DNA of 64,000 nt from an uncultured Candidatus Rokubacteria bacterium (GTDB lineage Bacteria; Methylomirabilota; Methylomirabilia; Rokubacteriales; CSP1-6), in NCBI GenBank assembly GCA_963789955.1, contig CAWBMV010000034.1, positions 672,001 through 736,000 of the forward strand, in the 5' to 3' direction. The notes beneath the pieces are model-generated. The model saw only the letters and a program-made list of their open reading frames with translations, had not been told where the DNA came from and made no database searches. Below are positions 667 to 16,773 of this stretch, one piece after another (position 1 is the stretch's first letter; every line of letters starts with the position of its first letter). A program made the position numbers and the translations under genes.

Positions 667-754
667 GCCCGCGATGACCGGACCGACTCGCCCGTCGCGA
701 GACCCGCGCGGTCGCCGGTCGAAATCCACCGAGTCGCGTGCCGGGAGGTGCGCC

Positions 755-2019
755 ATGCGCAGACGGGTGCTGCTTGCTCTCCTTCGTTCTGTTGCTCGTT
801 GCTCCCATCAGCGCGCGCGCGCTCCCGCCAGGGACTCCCGAGGAAGTCGGCCTGTCCAAGGAGCGACTGGCGCGAATCGGACAGATGCTGAACGGTCAGA
901 TCGAGATGCGCAGCTTTCCGGGCGCCGTCGCGCTTGTCGCGCGGAAGGGGCGCGTCGCGTACTTCGAAGCCGTCGGGCAGCTCGACCCGAAGACCGGCTC
1001 GCCGATGTCGAAGGACGCGATCTTCCGGCTCTACTCGATGACGAAGCCGTTCACGTCGGTGGCCGCGATGATCCTCGTCGAGGAGGGGCGCCTGCGCCTG
1101 ACCGATCCGGTCGGCACGTACCTGCCGAAGCTCCTGAAGCTGGACGTGGCGGCGCAGGGCACGGACTCGAACGGAAAGGCCACCTACACGGTCGTCCCGT
1201 CCGAGCGTCCGGTGACGGTCTACGATCTCATGCGCCACACCTCGGGGCTGGTCTATGCGGGATCCACGCGCAACGAATACGTGAAGGATCTGTACGCGAA
1301 GGAGAACGTCGGGTGGTCCGGCGTCACCCCGGCCGAGCAGGTCGAGGCGCTCGCCAAGGTTCCCCTGGCCCGTCAGCCCGGGACGATGTGGGAATATGGC
1401 CTTTCGACCGACGTGGTCGGACGCGTTGTCGAGTCGGTCGCGGGCATGCCGCTCGGGCGATTTCTCGACGAGCGCCTCTTTCGCCCGCTCGGGATGAAGG
1501 ATACGACGTTCCTCGTGCCGCCCGACAAGGTCAAGCGTCTGGCCCAGCCCCTCGCCGTCGATCGCGCGACGGGCAAGCCGATCACCCTGCACGACGTCAC
1601 GGTCGCGCCGAAGAACGACGCGGGCGGCGCCGGCGCCGCCGGGACCGCGATGGACTATGCGCGCTTCCTGCAGATGCTGGCGAACGGCGGCTATCTGGAC
1701 AGTAAGTGGATCCTCGCCGGGACGACCGTCCGTCTCATGACCGCGGATCACCTCGGCGACATCAAGCCCGCCATCCCGCTGCTCGCGCCGGGCTACGGCT
1801 TCGGTCTGGGCTTCGCGATCCGCCGCGCGGACGGTCTCGAACGGCGTCGCCGGCTCCGCCGGCGAATACAACTGGGGCGGAGCGGGCGGCACGATGTTCT
1901 GGGTGGATCCGAGAGAGCAGCTGGTCGCCGTGCTGATGACCCAGGCGCAGCCCGGACCCTGGCAGCGTGAGTTTCGCGAGCTGTTCCGCCAGCTCGTCTA
2001 CCAGGCCATCGTCGACTGA
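755..2019 (+). CDS. Secreted serine hydrolase, beta-lactamase class C/esterase family (two frameshifts, near 780 and 1840)
   Basis: SxxK motif FRLYSMTKP, LMRHTSGL, WEYGLSTD. The C-terminus YNWGGAGGTMFWVDP...LVYQAIVD* is in another frame. ATG 755 follows GGAGG. Confidence 0.85.
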
Positions 2020-2878: not shown

Positions 2879-3315
2879 GCCGCGAGTATCCGGACTATCC
2901 GCGGGTCGGCGTCGGCGCCGTCATCCTCCACGAGGACAAGGTGCTGCTCGTGCGGCGCGGCAAGGCGCCGTCGTTCGGCAAGTGGAGCCTGCCCGGCGGT
3001 CTCGTCGAGCTCGGCGAGTCGACCAAGGAGGCCATCGAGCGCGAGATCCGCGAGGAGTGCGGGATCAAGATCCGCGTCGTCGACGTGGCGGGCGTCATCG
3101 ACCGCGTCGTGAAGGATGACGCGGGTCGCGTCCGCTATCATTACGTGCTGGTGGATTACCTGGCGTATCCCGATTCGCTGGACGTCGAGGCGGGCGACGA
3201 TGCCGCCGAGGCGCAATGGTTCGAGATCGGCCGCCTGGCCGAGCTCGACACCACCCAGGGCCTCCTGGACATGATCCGGCGAGCCGAGACGCTGAGAGGA
3301 GGAACGCGCGGGTGA
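2875..3315 (+). CDS. NUDIX hydrolase
   Basis: Nudix box GGLVELGESTKEAIEREIREECG; GTGA overlap with the upstream stop. Confidence 0.9.
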   Translation: MSREYPDYPRVGVGAVILHEDKVLLVRRGKAPSFGKWSLPGGLVELGESTKEAIEREIREECGIKIRVVDVAGVIDRVVKDDAGRVRYHYVLVDYLAYPDSLDVEAGDDAAEAQWFEIGRLAELDTTQGLLDMIRRAETLRGGTRG

Positions 3316-4797
3316 AAGTCGACATCGTCACCAAGCGACTCGAAGAGGTCCCGGCCGACGCGCTCGTGGTCGGTCTCCACGTCGGCGAAACGAAGCTGCC
3401 GGAGCGTCTGGCGCGCCTCGATCGCGCGGCGCAGGGGCAGCTCAAGCGGGTGCTCGACGCCGAGAAGTTCTCAGGGAAAGCCGGCCAGGTGACGCACGCG
3501 CACGCCGACGGACGGCGCATCGTCGTCGCCGGGCTCGGCCCGCGGGCCGAGGCGAGCTCCGAGGTTCTGCGCCGGGCGGCGGCGGCGGCGGTGCGCCGGG
3601 CCCGCGATCTCGGCGCGCGCACGGTGGCCGCCGAAGCTCCTCGGCGATCGGCTCACCGCGCGCCAGCGCGCGCAGGCCGTCGTGGAGGGCGCGATTCTCG
3701 GCACGTACCACTTCGACCGGTACAAGCGCGAGAAAGCCGAGAGGATCGTCACCGAGCTCCGCCTGGTCGAGCCCGACGCGCGCCGCGCGCGCGAGGCCAA
3801 GGACGGCATGCGACGAGGGGAGAGCTTCGCGCTGGCCACGGCGTTCGCGCGCGACCTGATCAACGCGCCCGCCAACGATCTGCACCCGACCGATCTCGCG
3901 CGCGCCGCCACCGAGCTGGGGAAAGAGTCGCGCATCGAGGTCAAGGTGTTCGAGCAGGCCGAGTGCCAGAAGATGGGGATGGGCGCGTTTCTCGGCGTGG
4001 CCGCCGGGAGCGAGCAGCCGCCGAAGTTCATTCACCTGACCTACAGCCCGTCCGGCCGGCCCGCCGCGGGGCGCAAGCGCAAGAAGATCGTGCTCATCGG
4101 CAAGGGCATCACGTTCGACTCCGGCGGGCTCGACCTCAAGCCCCCCGACGGCATGCTGCGCATGAAGTACGACATGGCCGGCGCCGCGGCCGTGCTCGGC
4201 ATCATGCACGCGCTGCCCGCGCTCAAGCCCGCCGCCGAGGTCCACGGACTGATCGCGGCGACCGAGAACATGCCGTCCGGCTCGGCCATTCGTCCGGGCG
4301 ATGTGCTGAGGGCCATGAACGGCACCACGATCGAGATCGGCAACACCGACGCCGAGGGGCGCCTGACCCTGGCCGACGGCCTGTGCTACGCGAACACGAA
4401 CATCCAGGCCGACGAGATCATCGACATGGCGACCTTGACCGGCGCCTGCGTCATCGCGCTCGGCCAGCTCTGCTCGGGGCTCATGGCGAACAACCAGCCG
4501 CTGGCGAATCGCCTCATGAAGGCGGCGGAAGCGGCCGGCGAGCGGCTCTGGCAGCTGCCGCTGATCGACGAGTATCGCGACAATCTCAAGAGCGAGGTGG
4601 CCGACCTCAACAACGTCGGTCCGCGCGGCGGCGGCGCCATCACGGCCGGGCTCTTTCTCAAGGAGTTCGCGGGCAAGACTCCGTGGGCGCACCTGGACAT
4701 CGCGGGGCCGGCCTTCACCGAGAAGGACCTGCCACTGGCGCCGAAGGGCGCGACCGGATTCGCGGTGCGTACGGTCCTCACGTACCTGAGCGACTGA
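3312..4797 (+). CDS. pepA: Leucyl aminopeptidase M17 (frameshift near 3640)
   Basis: GKGITFDSGG, MKYDMAGAA, NTDAEGRL, DMATLTGA, WAHLDIAG; N-terminal domain from GTG 3312 lies in another frame. Confidence 0.92.
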
Positions 4798-4800
4798 GCC

Positions 4801-5684
4801 GTGGCGGGCGCGGTCGATCTGCATTCGCATACGACCGCGTCCGACGGCACTCTGGCGCCGCGCGAGCTGGTACGGCTGGCCGCGCGCCACGGCGTCCGGG
4901 TCCTCGCCGTGACCGATCACGACTCCACCGGCGGCGTCCGGGAGGCCATGGACGAGGCGCGCAGCCTGCCGCCCCTCGAGATCGTCCCCGGCCTCGAGAT
5001 CAATTGCGACGTGCCCGGCGCCGAGATCCACGTGCTCGGCTACTGTGTCGACTGGGAAGCGCCGTGGTTCCAGGAATTTCTCGGCGCGCAGCGGGAGGAG
5101 CGACGGCAGCGCGTCTACCGGATCGCGGCGCGGCTCGGCGAGCTCGGCATGCCGATCGAGCCCGACGCGGTCTTCGCCCTCGTGAAGGAAGGCTCGGCCG
5201 GCCGCCCGCACGTGGCGCAGGCGATGGTCGACCGCGGCTACGTGAAGTCGATCCGCGAGGCGTTCGATCGCTACCTCTCGCTGAACGGTCCCGCGAACGT
5301 GCCGCGCCGGCGGCTCACACCCGTCGAAGCCGTCCGCATCATCCGACGCGCGCGCGGTGTGCCGGTGCTCGCTCACCCCGGGCTCGCGAATCGCGACGAG
5401 CTGATTCCCGAGCTGGTCGACGCCGGGCTCCTCGGGATCGAGGCGTTCTATCCGGAGCACTCGTCCGGGCAGATCACGATGTATCGCGAGATGTGCTCGC
5501 GGCTCGGCCTGGTCGCCACGGGAGGCTCCGACTTTCACGGCCCGCGCGTCGGCGGTGTCCGGCATCCCGGCGTCCAGCCGGTTCCGGACGACGCCTGGCA
5601 GGAATTGCGGCGCCGCCTCGCGCGGCTGGCCGAGGATGCGCCGAGCGCGCCCCCAGCGCCCCCGCGCCGAACCCGGCGCGATGA
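4801..5684 (+). CDS. PHP-domain phosphoesterase (TrpH/YciV-like); true stop probably TGA 5682-5684 after a 3' frameshift
   Basis: DLHSHTTASDG, AVTDHD, HVLGY, GRPHVA, LAHPG, GGSDFHG. Confidence 0.85.
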
Positions 5685-6064
5685 CCACGATCCAGGCGCA
5701 GATCTTCGGCTTCACGGATTGCCAGGACACGCGCAAGGCGCAGCGCTTCTTCAAGGAGCGCGGCGTCACCGTCCACTTCGTCGACCTGAAGGAGCGCCCG
5801 GCGGCGCGCGGCGAGCTCAGACGGTTCGCCGAGAAATTCGGCGCCGCGGCGCTGATCGATCGCGAGGGCGCGCGCTACAAAGCGCTCGGCCTGCGCGTCG
5901 CCCTCGACTCGCCCGAGCGCCTGCTCGAGCGCGCGTTGACCGAGCCGCGCCTGCTCCGGACTCCGCTCGTGCGGTGCGGAGGGCGCGTGGCGATCGGTCA
6001 CGCGCCCGACGTGTGGCAGGAGTGGCTGGAGACCGCGAAGCAGGGAGGGGGCAAGCCCGCATGA
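5681..6064 (+). CDS. ArsC/Spx family thioredoxin-fold protein
   Basis: GFTDCQDTRKAQRFFKERG...PRLLRTPLVR. Confidence 0.8.
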   Translation: MTTIQAQIFGFTDCQDTRKAQRFFKERGVTVHFVDLKERPAARGELRRFAEKFGAAALIDREGARYKALGLRVALDSPERLLERALTEPRLLRTPLVRCGGRVAIGHAPDVWQEWLETAKQGGGKPA

Positions 6065-7207
6065 CTCCGCGTCCGTTCACGATCAAGGTCGCCGACGAGG
6101 TGCTGGCCGATCTCCGCGCTCGGCTCGAGCGCGTGCGCTGGCCCGACGAGGCTCCGGACGCCGGCGTGGCGCTACGGCACGAGCGTCGCGTACATGAAGG
6201 AGCTGGTCGAGTACTGGCGCACGCGCTACGACTGGCGCGCGCACGAGTCGCGGCTGAACACCGTGCGGCAGTTCACGGTCGAGCTCGACGGGATCGACCT
6301 CCACTTCATCCACGAGCCCGGCGTGGGGCCCGCGCCGATGCCGCTCCTGCTCTCGCACGGGTGGCCCGGATCGATCGTGGAGTTCGAGCGGATCTTGCCG
6401 ATGCTGACCGATCCCGCGCGCTTCGGCGGCGATCCGGCGGACGCGTTCACCGTCGTCGCGCCGTCGCTGCCGGGCTACGGATTCTCCTTCCGCGCGAATC
6501 AGCCGCGCTTCGGCGTCGAGGAGATCGCCGACACGTTCGCGCGACTCATGACCGACGTCCTCGGCTACCGCCGCTTCGCCGCGCAGGGCGGCGACTGGGG
6601 CGCCTTCATCACGTCAAGGCTCGGTCTGCAGTACCCCGAGCGCCTGGCCGGTATCCACCTGAACCTGCTCGCGGTACGCCGCGACCCGACGCTGCCCGAC
6701 ACGCCGACCGCGGAGGAGCGCGCGTACATCAAGCAGCTCCAGACCTGGCAGCGCGAGGAAACGGGCTACCAGTGGATCCAGGGCACGCGGCCCCAGACCT
6801 TGGCCTACGGTCTCAGCGACTCCCCGGTCGGGCTGGCGGCGTGGATCGTCGAGAAGTTCCGGACGTGGAGCGACTGCGGCGGCGACGTCGAGCGCAGCTT
6901 CTCGAAGGACACTTTGCTCACCAACGTGACGGTCTACTGGGTCACCGGGGCCATCAACTCGTCGTTCTGGCCGTACTACGCGCGCTTCCACCGTCCGTGG
7001 CCGCTGCCGGACGGCAAGCGCATCACGGTGCCCACGGCGTACGCCGCGTTTCCGCGCGAGATCCTGCTGCCGCCGCGCGCGTGGGCCGAGCGCGCCTACA
7101 ACATCCAGCGCTGGACCACGATGCCGGCCGGCGGCCACTTCGCCGCCCTCGAACAACCCGAGGCGCTGGCCGCCGACATTCGCGCCTTCTTCCGCCCGCT
7201 CCGCTGA
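6061..7207 (+). CDS. Epoxide hydrolase with EHN domain (frameshift near 6165)
   Basis: PFTIKVADEVLADLRARL..RWPD, HGWPGS, PSLPGYGFS, QGGDWG, GGHFAALEQP. Confidence 0.9.
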
Positions 7208-7283
7208 TCGCGCAGAGTCGCCCGGAAGCTGGGCCAGGCCGGCGAGGCAGCCTGGCCCGCTTCCCGCTCGACTCGCCCCGATC
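7206..7283. terminator. Long interrupted hairpin between convergent genes
   Basis: Nested arms GATCG/CGATC, GAGTCG/CGACTC, GGAAGC/GCTTCC, GGGCCAGGC/GCCTGGCCC; no U-tract. Confidence 0.5.
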
Positions 7284-7669
7284 TAGCCGATGATTCGACG
7301 AGCCTTGGCGGGATTCGAGACCGTGATGATCACGGTCGCGCCGCCGCGCCCGGCGGTGGTCGCATAGGCCGATTTGATGTTGACGCCGCCGCGCGCGAGC
7401 TTGTCGGCGACTCGCGCGAGCGCCCCGGGCTTGTTGCTGACCCGCTTGGCGAACGCGACTTCTTCGGTGAAGCGCACGCGCGCCTTCCGCAGCGCACGCT
7501 TGGCGAGGGTCGGCTTGTTGACGACCATGCGAATCTTGCCCCGCCCCGCGGCCTCGGCCGCCGAGAGCGAGAGAATGTTGACCCTGGCGTCGGCCAGCGC
7601 GCGGCCGATTCCCGCGAGAACGCCTCTCTTGGACCGGAGCGTCAGGACGAGCTGACTCGTCTTGGGCAT
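7283..7669 (-). CDS. Tandem ACT-domain protein
   Basis: SKRGVLAGIGRALADARVNILSLS and NKPGALARVADKLARGGVNIKSAY; start MPKTSQ after a GGAG RBS. Confidence 0.85.
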   Translation of the reverse strand: MPKTSQLVLTLRSKRGVLAGIGRALADARVNILSLSAAEAAGRGKIRMVVNKPTLAKRALRKARVRFTEEVAFAKRVSNKPGALARVADKLARGGVNIKSAYATTAGRGGATVIITVSNPAKARRIIG

Positions 7670-9802: not shown

Positions 9803-10342
9803 ATGAAGACCAAGGTCCGGATCGGCGTGATCATCCTGTTGATCTTCGCGGTGCTCGGCGTGCCCGAGCGCGCGTACGTGGCCCCGGAACGGCCGGACGT
9901 CGTGCCGCCGAAGCCGACCGGCGCGCAGGAGGTCGACGTCGTCGCGGTCATGGTCGATCAAGCCACGCAGCAGCCGACCGTCATGCTCCAGGGCAAGCGC
10001 GACAAACGCTCCGTCGCCCTCGCCATCGGGCTGGCCGAGGCGACCGGAATCGCCGTGCCGCTGCAGGGTGTGACGCCGCCGCGGCCGCTCACCCACGACC
10101 TCTTCCTGACATTGTTCGGCCGGCTCAAGGTGTCGCTCACGCGCGTCGTCATCACCGATCTGCGCGACGACATCTTCTACGCCATCATCTACCTCAACGC
10201 GGGCGGGCCCGAGTTCCAGCTCGACGCGCGCCCGTCGGACGCGATCGCGCTGGCGATCCGCGCGAAGGTGCCGGTGCTGGTCGAGGAGCGCGTCTTCGAG
10301 AAGGCCGGCACCACCGCGCCGCCACGCCGCCCGTCGATCTGA
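9803..10342 (+). CDS. Bifunctional nuclease (DUF151/BFN) domain protein with N-terminal hydrophobic segment
   Basis: IGLAEATGIA..L.G..PPRPLTHDL, DARPSDAIALAIRAKVPV; RBS AGGAG. Confidence 0.88.
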   Translation: MKTKVRIGVIILLIFAVLGVPERAYVAPERPDVVPPKPTGAQEVDVVAVMVDQATQQPTVMLQGKRDKRSVALAIGLAEATGIAVPLQGVTPPRPLTHDLFLTLFGRLKVSLTRVVITDLRDDIFYAIIYLNAGGPEFQLDARPSDAIALAIRAKVPVLVEERVFEKAGTTAPPRRPSI

Positions 10343-10346
10343 CGCC

Positions 10347-11288
10347 ATGGCCGAGTCCGAGCGAAACGAGAAGGAGTGGGCGCTCCAGCGGCGACTCGAG
10401 GACGTCTTCGTCAAGCTGGGGGAGAAGTACGGCGACCTGACCGGCCGCGTCGAGACGAAGATCAAGTCGACGATCACCTTCGACGACGTCGGCGGGCTCC
10501 GGCAGGCGAAGACCATCCTCAAAGGATTCGCGCTCGCGCTCAGCGAGCCCGACCTCTACCGGCAGTGGGGCATCGAGCCGCCGAAGGGGCTGCTCCTCTA
10601 CGGACCGCCGGGCACCGGGAAATCGAAGCTCGCGCAGGCGCTCGCCACGACGTCGGGCGCGATCTTCTATCACCTGAAGCTCATGAACCTCACCTCGAAG
10701 TTCGCCGCCAACACCGCCGATCTGCTGCAGGAGATCTTGAAGATCGCGATGGCCGAGGGACCCGCGGTGCTGTTCCTCGACGAGGCCGAGGCGCTCTCGC
10801 TCGAGCACCTGTTGCCGCCGCCCCAGGCGCGGGAAGCGAGCGCGCGGCTGGTCGCGGCGCTGTGCGAGAAGCTGGACGCGATGAGCACGACCGAGCGAAT
10901 CCTGGTCGTCGCGTCCACCACGCACACCGATGCGCTCGATCCCGCGCTGGTCGCGCCGGGACGCCTCGACCATCTCATCGAGATCCCGCCGCCCGATCCG
11001 GCGGCCCAGCGCGAAATCCTGGAGCTGATCCGTCTCCGCACGGAGAAGACCGCGGGGCGTCCGCTCTTCGAGAAGATCGACTACGACAAGATCCTGCCGG
11101 TCATGGGGGGCATGAGCGGCGCCGACCTTTCGGTGATCGTCCGGCGCGCCCTCGAGGTGAAGGTGCGCGCGGCGGCCGAGCGACCGGACGCGCCGCCCGT
11201 CTCGACCGACGACCTGCTGGACGCGATCGACAGCTACAAGGGCGTGCGGGGGGTCGTGGAGAAGATTCGCTACGGTCAGTATCTGTGA
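10347..11288 (+). CDS. Single-domain classical AAA+ ATPase ending in GQYL
   Basis: TFDDVGGL, Walker A GPPGTGKS, Walker B LFLDEAE, SRH-like DALDPALVAPGRLD, GMSGADL; ends KIRYGQYL*. Confidence 0.9.
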   Translation: MAESERNEKEWALQRRLEDVFVKLGEKYGDLTGRVETKIKSTITFDDVGGLRQAKTILKGFALALSEPDLYRQWGIEPPKGLLLYGPPGTGKSKLAQALATTSGAIFYHLKLMNLTSKFAANTADLLQEILKIAMAEGPAVLFLDEAEALSLEHLLPPPQAREASARLVAALCEKLDAMSTTERILVVASTTHTDALDPALVAPGRLDHLIEIPPPDPAAQREILELIRLRTEKTAGRPLFEKIDYDKILPVMGGMSGADLSVIVRRALEVKVRAAAERPDAPPVSTDDLLDAIDSYKGVRGVVEKIRYGQYL

Positions 11289-11692
11289 TCGCGTCGACGA
11301 AGATCCGCGTCCGCTACAAGGACACGGACTGCATGAAGGTCGTCTACTACGGCAACTACCTCACGTACTTCGAGGTCGGCCGGGTCGAGTTTCTCCGCCA
11401 GCAAGGGCTCGCGATGTCCCACGTGGATCGGCAGATCCATCTGCCCGTCGTCGAGGCCCTGGTCCGCTACCGCAAGCCGGCGCGACTCGACGATCTGCTG
11501 GAGGTGCGCTGCTGGGTGAGCGAGCGGCGGCGGGCGAGCTTTCGCTTCGCCTACGAGATCCGCAACGAAGAGGGCGAGCCGGTCGCCACGGGATCCACCC
11601 TGCATGCCTGCCTGGACCCGGCGACCAGCGAGATGGTCGCCGTGCCGGCCTGGCTCCTGGAGCGGATGCCGATCGTCGATCAGTCGAAGTAA
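11285..11692 (+). CDS. YbgC/FcbC-family acyl-CoA thioesterase
   Basis: RVRYKDTDCMKVVYYGNYLTYFEVGRVEF, YRKPARLDD; GTGA overlap. Confidence 0.88.
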   Translation: MIASTKIRVRYKDTDCMKVVYYGNYLTYFEVGRVEFLRQQGLAMSHVDRQIHLPVVEALVRYRKPARLDDLLEVRCWVSERRRASFRFAYEIRNEEGEPVATGSTLHACLDPATSEMVAVPAWLLERMPIVDQSK

Positions 11693-13472: not shown

Positions 13473-14993
13473 TCCGGCGGCTGCTCGACTGGGGCGGCTA
13501 TCTCGGGATCGCCGTGCTGGCCTTCGGGGCGATCCTGCCGTTCGTGCGGCCGGAATGGAATCGGTTCCGGTGGATCTTCCTCGCCGTCGGCGTCCTGCTC
13601 GTCCTGGTGTCCTTGCTCGCCCGGGTCGAGGACTATCGCGGGCTCTTCGGCCGGCGCGCGATGAAGTACGGCCTGAACACCGCCGTCGCGGTTGCGCTGG
13701 TGCTGGGCGCGACGGTCGTCGTCCAGGCGCTCTCGTTCCGCCACAGCGCGCGCTGGGATCTCACCGAGAACAAGCGTTTCAGCCTGTCGCCGCAGACCAT
13801 CCAGCTGCTCGGCGGTCTCAAGACCGACGTGAGCGCGGTCGCGTTCTTCCGCAGCGATCAACCCGGCAAGCGGGTGGCCGAGGACCTCCTGAAGCAGTAC
13901 GCCCGCTATTCGAACGGCAAGTTCACCTGGAAGAGCGCCGACCCAGACCGTGAGCCCGGGCTGGCCCGGCGCTACGGCATCGAGTCCTACGGCACGATCG
14001 TGCTCGAGACCAAGGCCAAGTCGGAGAAGGTGCTCGACGCCGAGGAAGAAAAGCTGACGAACGGTCTCGTCAAGGTCACGCGCGAGGGCAAGCGCCTCGT
14101 CTACGTGGTCCAGGGGCACGGCGAGGCCGAGCTCGGGAGCACCGAGCGGCCGGGATTCAGCGAAGCGAAGTCGGCGATGGAAAAGGCCAACTACGACGTC
14201 AAGCCGCTCGTCCTGGCGCGCGCGGGCAAGGTCCCGGACGACGCGACCGTCGTCATCCTCGCCGGGCCGAAGAACGATCTGTTCCCGCCGGAGCTCGACG
14301 CCCTCGACGCGTACCTGGGCCGGGGCGGCAAGGTGCTGGCGATGATCAATCCGTTCCAGAACGAGGGGCTCAAGAAGCACCTCGTGAAGTACGGATTCCA
14401 GCTCGACGATGACCTGGTCGTGGAGCAGAACCCGATCGGGCGCCTCTTCGGAATCGGACCGGAGGTCCCGATCATCCAGCAGTACGACTCGCATCCGATC
14501 ACGCGGGACCTCGCCGGCATCACGACCCTGTTCCCGCTGACGCGCTCGATCACCGCGCTCAAGACCCCGCCGAAGGGCGTGACCGTGCAGACGCTCGCGA
14601 AGACCAGCCCCGACAGCTGGGGCGAGACCAATCGCGCGGATCTTCAGCGCGGCGTGGCGCAGCCCGATCGCTCAGGACTTGAAGGGCCCGCTGGCGGTCG
14701 CGGCGGTCGCGACGATGGACAAGGCGCGGATGGTCGTCTACGGCACGTCCAACCTCGCCGCGAATCAGTTCCTGAACATCCAGGGCAATCGCGACTTCTT
14801 CCTCAACACCGTGAGCTGGCTCGCCGAGGAAGAAGATCAGATCTCGGTCCGTCCCAAGGACGTGAAGCAGACCCCGGTGTTCATGAGCTCGAACCAGGCG
14901 CAGGCCGTCTTCCTCCTGCCCGTCGTGATCCTGCCCGCGCTCGTCCTCGCCGGCGGGATCGTCGCCGTCGTCCGCCGCCGCGCGGCGAACTAG
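13469..14993 (+). CDS. GldG-family ABC auxiliary component (frameshift near 14670)
   Basis: RWDLTENKRFSLSPQT, GHGE, GNRDFFLNTVSWL, C-terminal TM helix. Confidence 0.85.
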
Positions 14994-15005
14994 TCGGGCG
15001 GTACC

Positions 15006-16773
15006 ATGCGCTGGCAGACGACCGCAGCCCTGGCCGTCATCCTGATCGCCCTGGGCGCCTTCTACTACGTCTACGAAATCCGGCTGGGCCCTGAGCGCGA
15101 GAAGACCGAAGGGCGCAAGGGCCGCGTCTTCACGGTCGAGCCGGCCGACGTCGCGGAGGTGGAGCTCAAACGCGCCGATTCCACGGTCAAGCTCAAGCGC
15201 GCAGGACGACGGCTGGCAGATTCTCGAGCCGGTGAACGCGCGGGGCGACCGCGGCGCCGTCGACGAGACGGTGACCTCGATCGTGACGGCCCGCATGGAT
15301 CGCGAGATCGAGGCCGAGCCGAAAGCGCTCGGCGACTTCGGGCTCGACCGCCCGGCCGCCGAAGCGACGCTCAAGCTCAAGGACGGCAAGCAGATCGGTC
15401 TGGTCCTCGGCGCCAAGAGCCCGACCGGCGTGTGGGTGTACGCGCGCGAGGCGGGCAAGCCGGCGGTCTTCGTGGTCGGCGACTCGGTCCTGCGCGACAC
15501 GACGCGACCGGTCGCCGAGTTCCGCGACAAGACCGTGCTCGCGTTCGAGCAGAAGGACGTGACGGGGCTCGAGCTCGACATGCGCGACGAGAAGATCGCG
15601 CTCGAGCAGGCCGACGGCCGCTGGAAGGTGACGAAGCCGCGGCCGCTGCCGGCGGACGCCGACACGGTGCGCGACTTCCTCGACAAGCTCCGCGCGGCGC
15701 GCGTCAAGGAGTTCGCGGCCGACGCGCCCAAATCGCTGGAGCCGTTCGGCCTCGACAAGCCGGTGCGCCTCGACGTCCAGACGGGGCGCGAGAAGGACCG
15801 CGCGACGAAGACCTTGCTGATCGGGCGCGCCGACCCGGCCAAGAAGGGCGTCTACGCCATGCGGCCGGGCGAGTCGGCGGTGCTGCTGATCCCCGACGAG
15901 ACGTGGACGGCGGTGCCGAAGAACCTCGCGGTCCTGCGCGACAAGAGCGTCGTCGGATTCGATCGCGACAAGGTGACGAAGATCGAGATCGAGAGCCCGA
16001 AGGGCACGGTCACGATTGCCAAGGACGGCGACCGCTGGAAGATCACCGCGCCGCAGGCGCTGGCCGCCGATCAGGTCGAAGCCGGCGCGGTGCTCTTCAA
16101 GCTGCGCGACCTCCGGGCCCAGGCGTTCCTGACCGACGACGCCTCGGGGATCCCGCGCTATCTGGCCAAGCCCACGGTGCGGGTGAACATCACCGAGCAA
16201 GGCGCGTCGGCGCCGCGGACGGTGCTGCTGGCGCCCTCGACCGAGAAGCGCGGCGGCTCGCCCAGCGCCTACGCGGCGGTGGCGGGCCAGGGGCCGGTGG
16301 TGCTGGTCGACGGCAAGGCGCTCGAGGATCTGGGCCGATCGTCCGACGATCTGCGCGACCGCACGCTCATGTCCGGGCTCGAGCCGCGCGACATCAAGCG
16401 CATGCGCGTGCGCGCCGGCGGCCAGACCGTCGTGGTCGAGCGGAGCGGGGAGAGCGACTGGAAGCTGGTCGAGGGCGGAAGCGGCGCCGCGAAGTCCGCG
16501 ACCGTGGACAACCTGCTCTACTCGCTCCGGGCGCTGAAGTGGAAGACGATCGCGGCGCCGACCGGCGACGAGCCGGCCAAGTACGGGCTCGATGCGCCGA
16601 CCTTCGAGGTGACGCTCCTGAAAGCCGACGGCAGCGAGGCCGGCGCGCTGCTGGTCGGAAAGCGCGAGGGCGACCAGGCCTGGGTCAAGCTCAAGACCGC
16701 GCCGGCGATCTACACCGTGGACGTCAAGCAGCTCGGTGAGACGCCGAAGGTCCCGAACGACTTCAAGAGCTGA
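15006..16773 (+). CDS. DUF4340 repeat-containing periplasmic protein (frameshift near 15200)
   Basis: N-terminal TM anchor; repeated W...P...AD...V / FGLD.P modules; follows gldG-like gene. Confidence 0.8.

What the first reader, a model, noticed from the sequence alone, without database searches (positions are those of the whole stretch)
10347..11288. Minimal AAA+ ATPase ending in the proteasome-docking motif GQYL: candidate new 20S proteasome activator
Seen: a 313-aa protein with only about 40 residues before a single classical AAA module, ending KIRYGQYL*. The pore loop reads SKFAAN (usually K-aromatic-x-G-E). The SRH reads STTHTDALDPALVAPGRLD (usually ATNRxxxLDPALxRPGRxD), so sensor-1 Asn and the first Arg are replaced. 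Established: GQYL is the C-terminal HbYX-type motif by which actinobacterial Mpa/ARC and Bpa/PafE dock on the 20S core, and Mpa needs an N-terminal coiled coil and OB domains to capture pupylated substrates. Inference: this is a third type of GQYL cap that lacks the Pup-binding module. It could be a Pup/UBact-independent, adaptor-dependent or weakly active gate opener. No prcA/B, pup or pafA gene is in this window.
Basis: partly seen in the sequence, partly recalled or inferred. Interest (0 to 1): 0.8.

Follow-up and report, generated by a model that had tools for sequence, protein, structure and literature searches.

The report
Third GQYL-tailed proteasome cap family
A small ATPase-like protein found in most genomes of a soil and groundwater bacterial phylum ends in the same four residues that the cell's two known proteasome activators end in, so it is likely an undescribed proteasome cap whose motor parts have worn down in this lineage, though binding is untested.

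Summary
Observation confirmed: window 10347-11288(+) encodes a 313-aa single-domain classical AAA protein ending KIRYGQYL*. The host (Rokubacteriales, Methylomirabilota) carries arc, dop, prcB, prcA, pafA, pup and bpa elsewhere. Only 4 of its 69,754 open frames end GQYL: two arc tails, Bpa and this gene. The family is in 159 of 201 phylum genomes. The tail is kept in 50 of 50 loci not chosen by tail, down to 42% identity, while its codons vary. It is not a clipped ARC: trees place it with a 400-530-aa, catalytically intact AAA family that lacks GQYL (ARC clade rejected, p-AU 9e-9). Catalytic motifs decay along the tree: fully canonical in 8/8 sister proteins, 13/32 distant members, 0/89 Rokubacteriales-side members. 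Walker A Lys and the second Arg never change. Best reading: a nucleotide-binding, hydrolysis-poor, Pup-independent 20S cap (0.5; any tail-mediated 20S binding about 0.8). Against: binding untested, no within-phylum association with prcA, and a few carriers lack detectable prcA. Not found in ten literature searches. This scan noted the same family at least five times before on other DNA.

The parts
10347..11288 (+). Gene for the 313-aa minimal classical AAA protein with GQYL tail
   Evidence: AlphaFold2 model mean pLDDT 91.6; best Foldseek hits PAN/PAN-Rpt5 and p97 AAA domains
10353..10445 (+). Family-specific N-terminal amphipathic helix and turn (residues 3-33) in place of an N-domain; role unknown, candidate ring-stabilising or partner-binding element
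   Evidence: helix 3-28 predicted; R15 118/121, D19 112/121, G29 117/121, G33 121/121
10602..10625 (+). Walker A GPPGTGKS; K92 invariant
   Evidence: K92 in 121/121; position 93 is T/S in 67/89 Rokubacteriales-side and 32/32 distant members
10695..10712 (+). Pore loop 1 SKFAAN; K-aromatic kept, canonical Gly lost
   Evidence: Gly at 121 in 0/89, 11/32 and 8/8 sister proteins; canonical Ar-Hb-Gly per PMC8755798
10767..10784 (+). Walker B VLFLDE, intact here but often broken in orthologues
   Evidence: DE in 61/89 Rokubacteriales-side and 31/32 distant members
10914..10970 (+). Second region of homology: sensor-1 N to T192, first Arg to A203, second Arg R206 kept
   Evidence: R203 in 0/89 and 18/32; N192 in 13/89 and 22/32; R206 in 121/121
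11205..11270 (+). Last helix (residues 287-308) leading straight into the tail, with no beta-grasp domain or long linker
11262..11288 (+). C-terminal KIRYGQYL and stop (GQYL = 11274-11285), the predicted 20S docking tail
   Evidence: 50/50 loci not chosen by tail, with synonymous codon and stop-codon variation; mean pairwise identity 0.98 against 0.51-0.62 for other segments
9803..10342 (+). Upstream neighbour: BFN/DUF151 domain protein with a hydrophobic N-terminus; linked only in Rokubacteriales, functional link unproven
   Evidence: PF02577; directly upstream in 68/83 Rokubacteriales-side loci and 0/13 others
11285..11692 (+). Downstream neighbour: YbgC/FadM-family thioesterase whose start overlaps the stop; probably incidental
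   Evidence: TIGR00051 over cut-off; adjacent in 63/74 Rokubacteriales-side loci and 0/11 others

Best explanation
This gene encodes a minimal single-domain AAA protein with an invariant GQYL tail that likely forms a nucleotide-bound ring, likely docks by that tail on the host's 20S proteasome and, in Rokubacteriales, would act as a hydrolysis-poor, Pup-independent cap that opens or tunes the gate rather than as a pulling motor. Shown: gene, fold class, tail conservation, host proteasome system, PrcA R26/K52, origin outside ARC, graded motif decay. Inferred: a hexamer (from the classical AAA fold); nucleotide binding (K92 and R206 invariant); docking (tail identity with ARC and Bpa); weak hydrolysis and no threading (sensor-1, first Arg and pore Gly lost, Walker B free to change); Pup-independence (no coiled-coil/OB module). 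Substrates would be already unfolded proteins or peptides, as for Bpa. Members in the other orders, which keep most motifs, may still be working ATPases.
For: (1) In G000 the 4 of 69,754 frames ending GQYL are two arc tails, Bpa (PF10759, E 1.4e-49) and this gene. (2) Tail in 50/50 loci not chosen by tail, at 42-100% identity, with 4 Gly, 5 Leu and 3 stop codons in use; 69 of 70 family members in a second search. The two most divergent members change the flanking residues but keep G-x-Y-L: GAYL in P0325 and RIRTGQYL in L338. That matches the published result that only the Q is free (passages of PMC6017811 and PMC12288473). (3) Host has dop, prcB, prcA, pafA, arc and pup; its PrcA has R26 and K52, the residues that bind PafE GQYL (10.1101/249060 passages); K52 is invariant in 20 of 20 PrcA. 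(4) All 21 carriers assembled in at most 100 contigs have prcA; the carrier labelled Deltaproteobacteria, G201, has prcA and Pup-ligase genes on the same contig. (5) Sister AAA proteins lack GQYL (0/8) and 0 of 5 of their genomes show prcA. (6) Full catalytic set in 8/8, 13/32 and 0/89 along the tree; Walker B DE is broken in 28/89 and Walker A T/S in 22/89 while the tail stays 89/89. (7) Precedent: archaeal AMA and CDC48 were identified as proteasome regulators from their tails and then confirmed (PMC3493965 passages).
Against: Within the phylum the gene and prcA are not associated beyond chance: 127 both, 32 gene only, 31 prcA only, 11 neither, against about 125 expected (expectation by my arithmetic). 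G013 and G017 (93% and 100% complete, 130 and 240 contigs) carry it with Bpa but no prcA, arc or Pup ligase was found; G238 carries it with no prcA or Pup ligase found. The gene is not in the proteasome operon; the one arc adjacency (G124) is absent from three related loci. It is dispensable in family f6 (2/18 carry it, 16/18 have prcA). A PafE ring with six GQYL tails failed to activate the 20S core, so a hexamer without motor force may bind without opening. Eight tail residues are conserved, more than the pocket is known to need. Non-consensus Walker residues did not abolish ATPase in Msm0858 D1 (PMC5515868 passage), and this protein keeps K92, S93, D145, E146 and R206, so 'hydrolysis-poor' may overstate.
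Confidence: 0.5

Rival explanations
1. Active unfoldase that docks on the 20S core by GQYL and gets its substrates through an adaptor, for example the neighbouring BFN/DUF151 protein; most plausible for members outside Rokubacteriales.
For: 31/32 distant members keep K, T/S, DE and the second Arg, and 30/32 keep an aromatic pore residue. The query keeps K92, S93, DE and R206. A BFN/DUF151 gene lies directly upstream in 68/83 Rokubacteriales-side loci, and DUF151-UVR proteins were trapped on chloroplast CLPC1 (PMC8889267 passages).
Against: 0/89 Rokubacteriales-side members are canonical, Walker B E is replaced by Q, D, S or H in some, and the pore Gly is in 0/89. The BFN linkage exists only where the motor is most decayed (0/13 elsewhere). 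That BFN protein usually starts with a hydrophobic, signal-like segment (seen by eye), which suggests export or membrane anchoring.
Confidence: 0.17
2. Decoy or blocker: it occupies the alpha-ring pockets without opening the gate and so limits ARC- and Bpa-driven degradation.
For: Motor decay with a perfectly kept tail. Six GQYL tails on a PafE ring do not activate. Cpa competes with Mpa and inhibits degradation in vitro (PMC6017811 passage). It coexists with ARC and, in some genomes, Bpa.
Against: No sequence feature separates blocking from opening. Known GQYL/HbYX tails open the gate when they dock. The tail follows the last helix directly, and shortening the PafE linker raises activity.
Confidence: 0.15
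3. The tail serves a non-proteasomal partner or an intramolecular role, and the GQYL match is convergent or incidental.
For: Eight residues conserved rather than four; carriers without detectable prcA; no operon link; no within-phylum association.
Against: Chance about 6e-6 per gene, and every other GQYL-ending frame in the genome is a known activator. The divergent members vary exactly at Q and upstream. The codons vary, and the tail persists where the overlapping downstream gene is absent.
Confidence: 0.1
4. It co-assembles with ARC in mixed rings and supplies exposed GQYL tails, acting as the missing factor that helps ARC engage wild-type cores.
For: Mpa hides its tail and is thought to need a co-factor (PMC12288473; 10.1101/249060). 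The gene is tail-to-tail with an arc copy in G124.
Against: Only 33% identity to ARC over 200 residues, a separate origin, and no OB domain for co-assembly. The adjacency occurs in one genome.
Confidence: 0.06

Closest known systems
Mpa/ARC, bacterial proteasomal ATPase (NCBIfam TIGR03689)
   Same: Single classical AAA domain and C-terminal GQYL; same host genomes.
   Different: 94 bits against a cut-off of 504.75; no coiled coil, OB or beta-grasp domain; 313 aa against about 560-610; pore Gly, sensor-1 and first Arg lost; a clade with ARC is rejected (p-AU 8.5e-9); not in the operon.
Bpa/PafE (Pfam PF10759)
   Same: GQYL tail, no Pup-binding module, encoded apart from the operon; probably the nearest functional analogue.
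   Different: Unrelated fold (Bpa is an ATP-independent dodecamer with 12 tails). Bpa is over cut-off in 37/201 phylum genomes against 159/201 for this family, and both occur in G000.
PAN (TIGR01242/NF003069) and archaeal AMA / CDC48 network
   Same: Best profile and structural hits (176 bits; Foldseek TM about 0.9 by target). Same logic of several AAA caps sharing one docking tail (PMC3493965).
   Different: Far below the 500-bit cut-off; no N-domain; bacterial GQYL rather than HbYX; not grouped with PAN or CDC48 in the tree. AMA was not in my tree.
Cpa (Cdc48-like protein of actinobacteria)
   Same: An extra AAA interactor of the bacterial 20S core that competes with Mpa.
   Different: Cpa has an N-domain and two AAA domains and no penultimate-Tyr motif; this protein has one domain and the motif.
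Unnamed 400-530-aa AAA family, mostly ending near an IGF-like motif (P0239, P0332, P0335, P0336, P0341, P0343, P0346, P0348)
   Same: Nearest relatives in both trees (SH-aLRT 100).
   Different: Extra N-terminal region with no Pfam family, all catalytic motifs intact, no GQYL; found in 0.9-1.1 Mb genomes with no prcA detected. Itself undescribed as far as I found.

Membership tests
Classical AAA clade | AAA fold with Walker A/B, SRH and helical small domain | tested here: met
   PF00004 E 3e-27; model and Foldseek hits to PAN, p97 and FtsH
Classical AAA clade (active motor) | Sensor-1 Asn, two SRH arginines, Ar-Hb-Gly pore loop | tested here: not met
   T192, A203 and A121 in the query; 0/89 Rokubacteriales-side members canonical
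Classical AAA clade (active motor) | Hexamer formation and ATP hydrolysis | not testable with these tools
   needs biochemistry; no oligomer model was run
Mpa/ARC | Score above the TIGR03689 cut-off | tested here: not met
   94.2 against 504.75 bits; best E among 77 members 6.7e-35
Mpa/ARC | N-terminal coiled coil and OB domains (PF17758, PF16450) | tested here: not met
   absent; present in a true ARC from the same phylum
Mpa/ARC | Common descent with ARC | tested here: not met
   AU test rejects a family+ARC clade, 13+3 rows against 28, quick tree
Mpa/ARC and Bpa (GQYL activators) | C-terminal GQYL at a free C-terminus | tested here: met
Mpa/ARC and Bpa (GQYL activators) | Host encodes an actinobacterial-type 20S core with PrcA R26/K52 | tested here: met
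   residue roles. Position 26 is K in several other-order PrcA
Mpa/ARC and Bpa (GQYL activators) | Co-occurrence with 20S genes across genomes | tested here: inconclusive
   21/21 in low-fragment genomes, 127/159 overall, no excess over chance within the phylum; exceptions G013, G017, G238
Mpa/ARC and Bpa (GQYL activators) | Tail-dependent binding and gate opening | not testable with these tools
Bpa/PafE | PF10759 fold | tested here: not met
   no PF10759 hit; the host Bpa is a separate gene
PAN | TIGR01242/NF003069 cut-off, N-terminal CC/OB domain, clade with PAN | tested here: not met
   169-176 against 500 bits; separate clade
Cpa/CDC48 | N-domain plus two AAA domains | tested here: not met
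   one domain, 313 aa
AMA | Archaeal single-AAA protein with its own N-domain and HbYX tail; clade with AMA | not tested
   no AMA sequence in my trees; the query has no N-domain

The most novel reading that the evidence does not exclude
An unrelated AAA ATPase was recruited to the bacterial proteasome by gaining a GQYL tail and losing its N-domain, then decayed into a nucleotide-binding pseudo-ATPase cap in Rokubacteriales while staying active in other orders. That would be a new class of 20S regulator, an AAA ring that gates or guards the proteasome without pulling, with living intermediates of the motor-to-scaffold transition.
Probability: 0.45. Interest if true: 0.82.

Novelty: new variant of a known kind. 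Interest (0 to 1): 0.66.

Why it matters
Only two GQYL activators (Mpa/ARC and Bpa) and one tail-less interactor (Cpa) are described for bacterial proteasomes, all from actinobacteria, and a 2025 review says nothing is known about how activator association is regulated (PMC12288473 passage). A third GQYL family, near-universal in an abundant uncultured soil lineage and of separate origin, would show that bacteria too run a network of caps, as archaea do. It also offers a natural series (intact sister family, partly decayed members, fully decayed members) for asking what a cap needs in order to open the gate: six tails, nucleotide binding, or hydrolysis. All parts are small soluble proteins that can be expressed in E. 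coli.

Tried and rejected
Complex prediction (three PrcA copies with the last 34 residues) was not available, so there is no model of docking either way. The wide structural search never ran; only Foldseek against PDB did. Truncated or frameshifted gene: rejected (4-nt gap to the upstream gene, orthologues about 304-328 aa, no long form among the 120 best hits); the single 467-aa BFN fusion P0024 is one sequence on one contig and probably an error. Tail kept by overlap with the downstream gene: rejected (codons vary; tail kept where that gene is absent). Mini-ARC: rejected. Phylum-wide loss of ATPase motifs: rejected. Idea that the family replaces a missing Bpa: weakened, since G000 has both; the first Bpa search had no working control. 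Profile scan of genome contigs was swamped by Walker A matches and covered 1 of 64 parts; I used it only for outgroups. The tail-pattern scan covered 38 of 64 parts and selects for the tail, so it is not counted as evidence of conservation; 7 of its 117 loci gave no family member (5 with no in-frame match, 2 short unrelated frames). Several carriers titled as other taxa (Binatia, Verrucomicrobiia, Nitrosocosmicus and others) are 60-93% identical to the query and are probably Methylomirabilota under other labels (inference). RNA-library contigs from four studies cover the gene, but DNA carry-over was not excluded, so expression is not shown. Promoter scan: one weak site before the MFS gene, not informative. 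ESM Atlas: nearest clusters are the family itself. The careful tree did not finish; quick trees were used.

Full report
Observation. Window 10347-11288(+) translates to 313 aa ending KIRYGQYL*. It is one classical AAA domain (PF00004) preceded by about 40 residues. The quoted motifs are correct: Walker A GPPGTGKS, pore loop SKFAAN, Walker B LFLDE, SRH STTHTDALDPALVAPGRLD. Against VAT, T192 stands for the sensor-1 Asn, A203 for the first Arg, and R206 is the second Arg. No named family is reached: PAN 176 against a cut-off of 500 bits, ARC 94 against 505, CDC48 160 against 803. An AlphaFold2 model (mean pLDDT 91.6) shows an N-terminal helix 3-28, the AAA large and small domains, and a last helix 287-308 followed by a five-residue free tail. 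Its best structural matches are PAN and p97 AAA domains.

Host. Record titles of the close relatives place the window in Rokubacteriales, Methylomirabilota. The genome has arc-dop-prcB-prcA-pafA about 145 kb away on the same contig, a second arc, a second pafA-like gene, pup (PF05639, E 3e-20) and bpa (PF10759, E 1.4e-49). Both arc copies are frameshifted near the 3' end in this assembly. I read these as sequencing errors, because many window genes are broken the same way and three genomes of the same genus have whole arc matches. Of 69,754 stop-terminated frames of 50 codons or more, four end GQYL: two arc tails, Bpa and this gene; 0.03 are expected by composition. Host PrcA has R26 and K52, which bind the PafE tail (bioRxiv 10.1101/249060, passages); K52 is invariant in 20 of 20 aligned PrcA.

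Family and tail. The protein matches at E<=1e-40 in 159 of 201 sampled phylum genomes, nearly always once: 118/125 in the host's family, 2/18 in family f6. I read 50 of those loci (the 30 best and 20 picked across the lower scores; none chosen by tail). All 50 end K-I-R-Y-G-Q-Y-L-stop at 42-100% identity, using 4 Gly, 2 Gln, 2 Tyr, 5 Leu and 3 stop codons. A search from the most distant member returned 79 new proteins: 70 family members (69 RYGQYL, 1 GAYL), 7 sister-family proteins and 2 unrelated AAA. L338 ends RIRTGQYL. So G, Y and L never change, while Q and the upstream residues can. This is the pattern reported for Mpa and Bpa (PMC6017811 passages; PMC12288473, first quarter of the text and passages). 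Outside the phylum it is rare: 2 of 301 genomes in the phylum of G201.

Co-occurrence. prcA is over cut-off in 158 of the same 201 genomes: 127 have both, 32 the gene only, 31 prcA only, 11 neither. That is what chance gives (about 125), so it is compatible but not supporting. All 21 carriers with at most 100 contigs have prcA, and 86 of 95 at 90% completeness or more. By my reading, 15 of the 32 without prcA still show arc or bpa, which points to assembly gaps. The real exceptions to resolve are G013 and G017 (Bpa but no prcA, arc or ligase found) and G238 (no prcA or ligase found). G201 has the gene, prcA and ligases on one contig. These tallies include five genomes flagged unpublished (G029, G047, G058, G101, G152); three of the 50 tail loci come from G047, G058 and G152. 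No conclusion depends on them alone.

Origin. Two quick maximum-likelihood trees (97 and 44 rows, SH-aLRT only) make the family one clade (100) and join it (100) with eight 403-531-aa AAA proteins that lack GQYL, to the exclusion of ARC, PAN, CDC48 and FtsH. Forcing the family together with ARC is rejected (p-AU 8.5e-9; three ARC rows, no AMA rows). Five genomes carrying sister proteins are 0.9-1.1 Mb and show no prcA. The tail therefore most likely arose independently of ARC; the direction of events is inferred, as the trees are unrooted.

Catalysis. Among 121 members below 90% mutual identity (from 259; this set includes loci found by tail patterns), K92, R206, G310, Y312 and L313 are invariant. 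The full set K, T/S, DE, N, R, R is in 8/8 sister proteins, 13/32 members under 49% identity to the query and 0/89 above it; groups were cut by identity, which tracks order. In the 89, Walker B DE is kept in 61, Walker A T/S in 67, sensor-1 N in 13, the first Arg in 0 and the pore Gly in 0. Selection thus keeps nucleotide-contact residues and the tail but not hydrolysis or threading residues. The general roles of these motifs are from passages of PMC6862443, PMC5515868 and PMC8755798; the relative weight of the two arginines is recalled, not looked up. Caution: Msm0858 D1 is active despite non-consensus Walker residues.

Neighbourhood. In Rokubacteriales the gene sits between a BFN/DUF151 gene (68/83 loci) and a thioesterase (63/74); neither is adjacent in the other orders (0/13, 0/11). 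In G124 it is tail-to-tail with a full arc ending GHYL, an arrangement absent from three related loci. I treat the neighbours as incidental and the BFN gene as a weak adaptor lead (PMC8889267 passages).

Mechanism. Most likely the protein forms a nucleotide-bound ring whose exposed tails enter the pockets between PrcA subunits, holding R26 and K52 as PafE does, and acts as a Pup-independent cap with little motor activity in this lineage (0.5). Rivals: adaptor-fed motor (0.17), blocker (0.15), non-proteasomal role (0.10), ARC co-factor (0.06). Tail-mediated contact with the 20S core in some form is about 0.8. Binding, ring state and activity are untested.

Novelty. Ten full-text searches listed no paper on this family. 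The GQYL papers concern Mpa, Bpa and Cpa; the ProEnd paper has no occurrence of Rokubacteria or QYL in its main text. I did not see its database or any supplement, the library omits most subscription journals, and the UBact survey of non-actinobacterial proteasomes is recalled only; any of these could list the protein. Public annotations are generic ('ATP-binding protein', '26S proteasome regulatory subunit'). This scan flagged the same family at least five times on other genomes; those notes are not independent evidence. Verdict: a real, undescribed family that works like a GQYL proteasome cap by every sequence test available, but is not a member of ARC, Bpa, PAN or Cpa. New variant of a known kind; interest 0.66.

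Noticed in passing
G000:C34:827681-834178 and G000:C6:163005-163196: The proteasome operon (arc-dop-prcB-prcA-pafA) has no pup between dop and prcB; pup lies alone on another contig and ends GGE.
   Followed up: partly
G000:C20:32368-32943: A true Bpa/PafE gene ending GQYL outside actinobacteria; over cut-off in 37 of 201 Methylomirabilota genomes, almost all in one family.
   Followed up: partly
G000:C20:67817-69731 and G000:C16:2760-4730: Second arc copy next to an integrase-like frame and a second pafA-like gene; duplicated arc is seen in several other genomes.
   Followed up: no
L131:1184-2875 (G124) and L456 (G182): Full ARC proteins ending GHYL instead of GQYL; in G124 an arc copy lies tail-to-tail 110 bp from the GQYL-AAA gene.
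   Followed up: partly
L451:5184-8538 (G014); also L128, L133, L122, L459: A convergent operon beside the gene in several other-order genomes: a 578-codon AAA frame, a JAB-like frame (by eye), a ThiF/E1 gene and a small ubiquitin-like-looking frame. No ThiF homologue of it was found in G000. L122 and L133 are from genomes flagged unpublished.
   Followed up: partly
P0239, P0332, P0335, P0341, P0343, P0346, P0348; L371, L376: Sister AAA family in very small genomes mostly ends near I/L-G-F, which resembles the ClpP-docking loop of ClpX/ClpA (recalled); a tail swap between protease-docking motifs is possible.
   Followed up: no
window 9803-10342: The BFN/DUF151 protein has a hydrophobic, signal-peptide-like N-terminus in most orthologues viewed, unusual for a presumed cytoplasmic nuclease; a second BFN gene lies on contig C17.
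   Followed up: partly
window 738-1970, 3216-4797, 4801-7293, 14679-16773: Several ordinary genes (beta-lactamase-fold hydrolase, leucyl aminopeptidase, PHP hydrolase, ABC components) appear frameshifted, suggesting uncorrected assembly errors in this genome.
   Followed up: no
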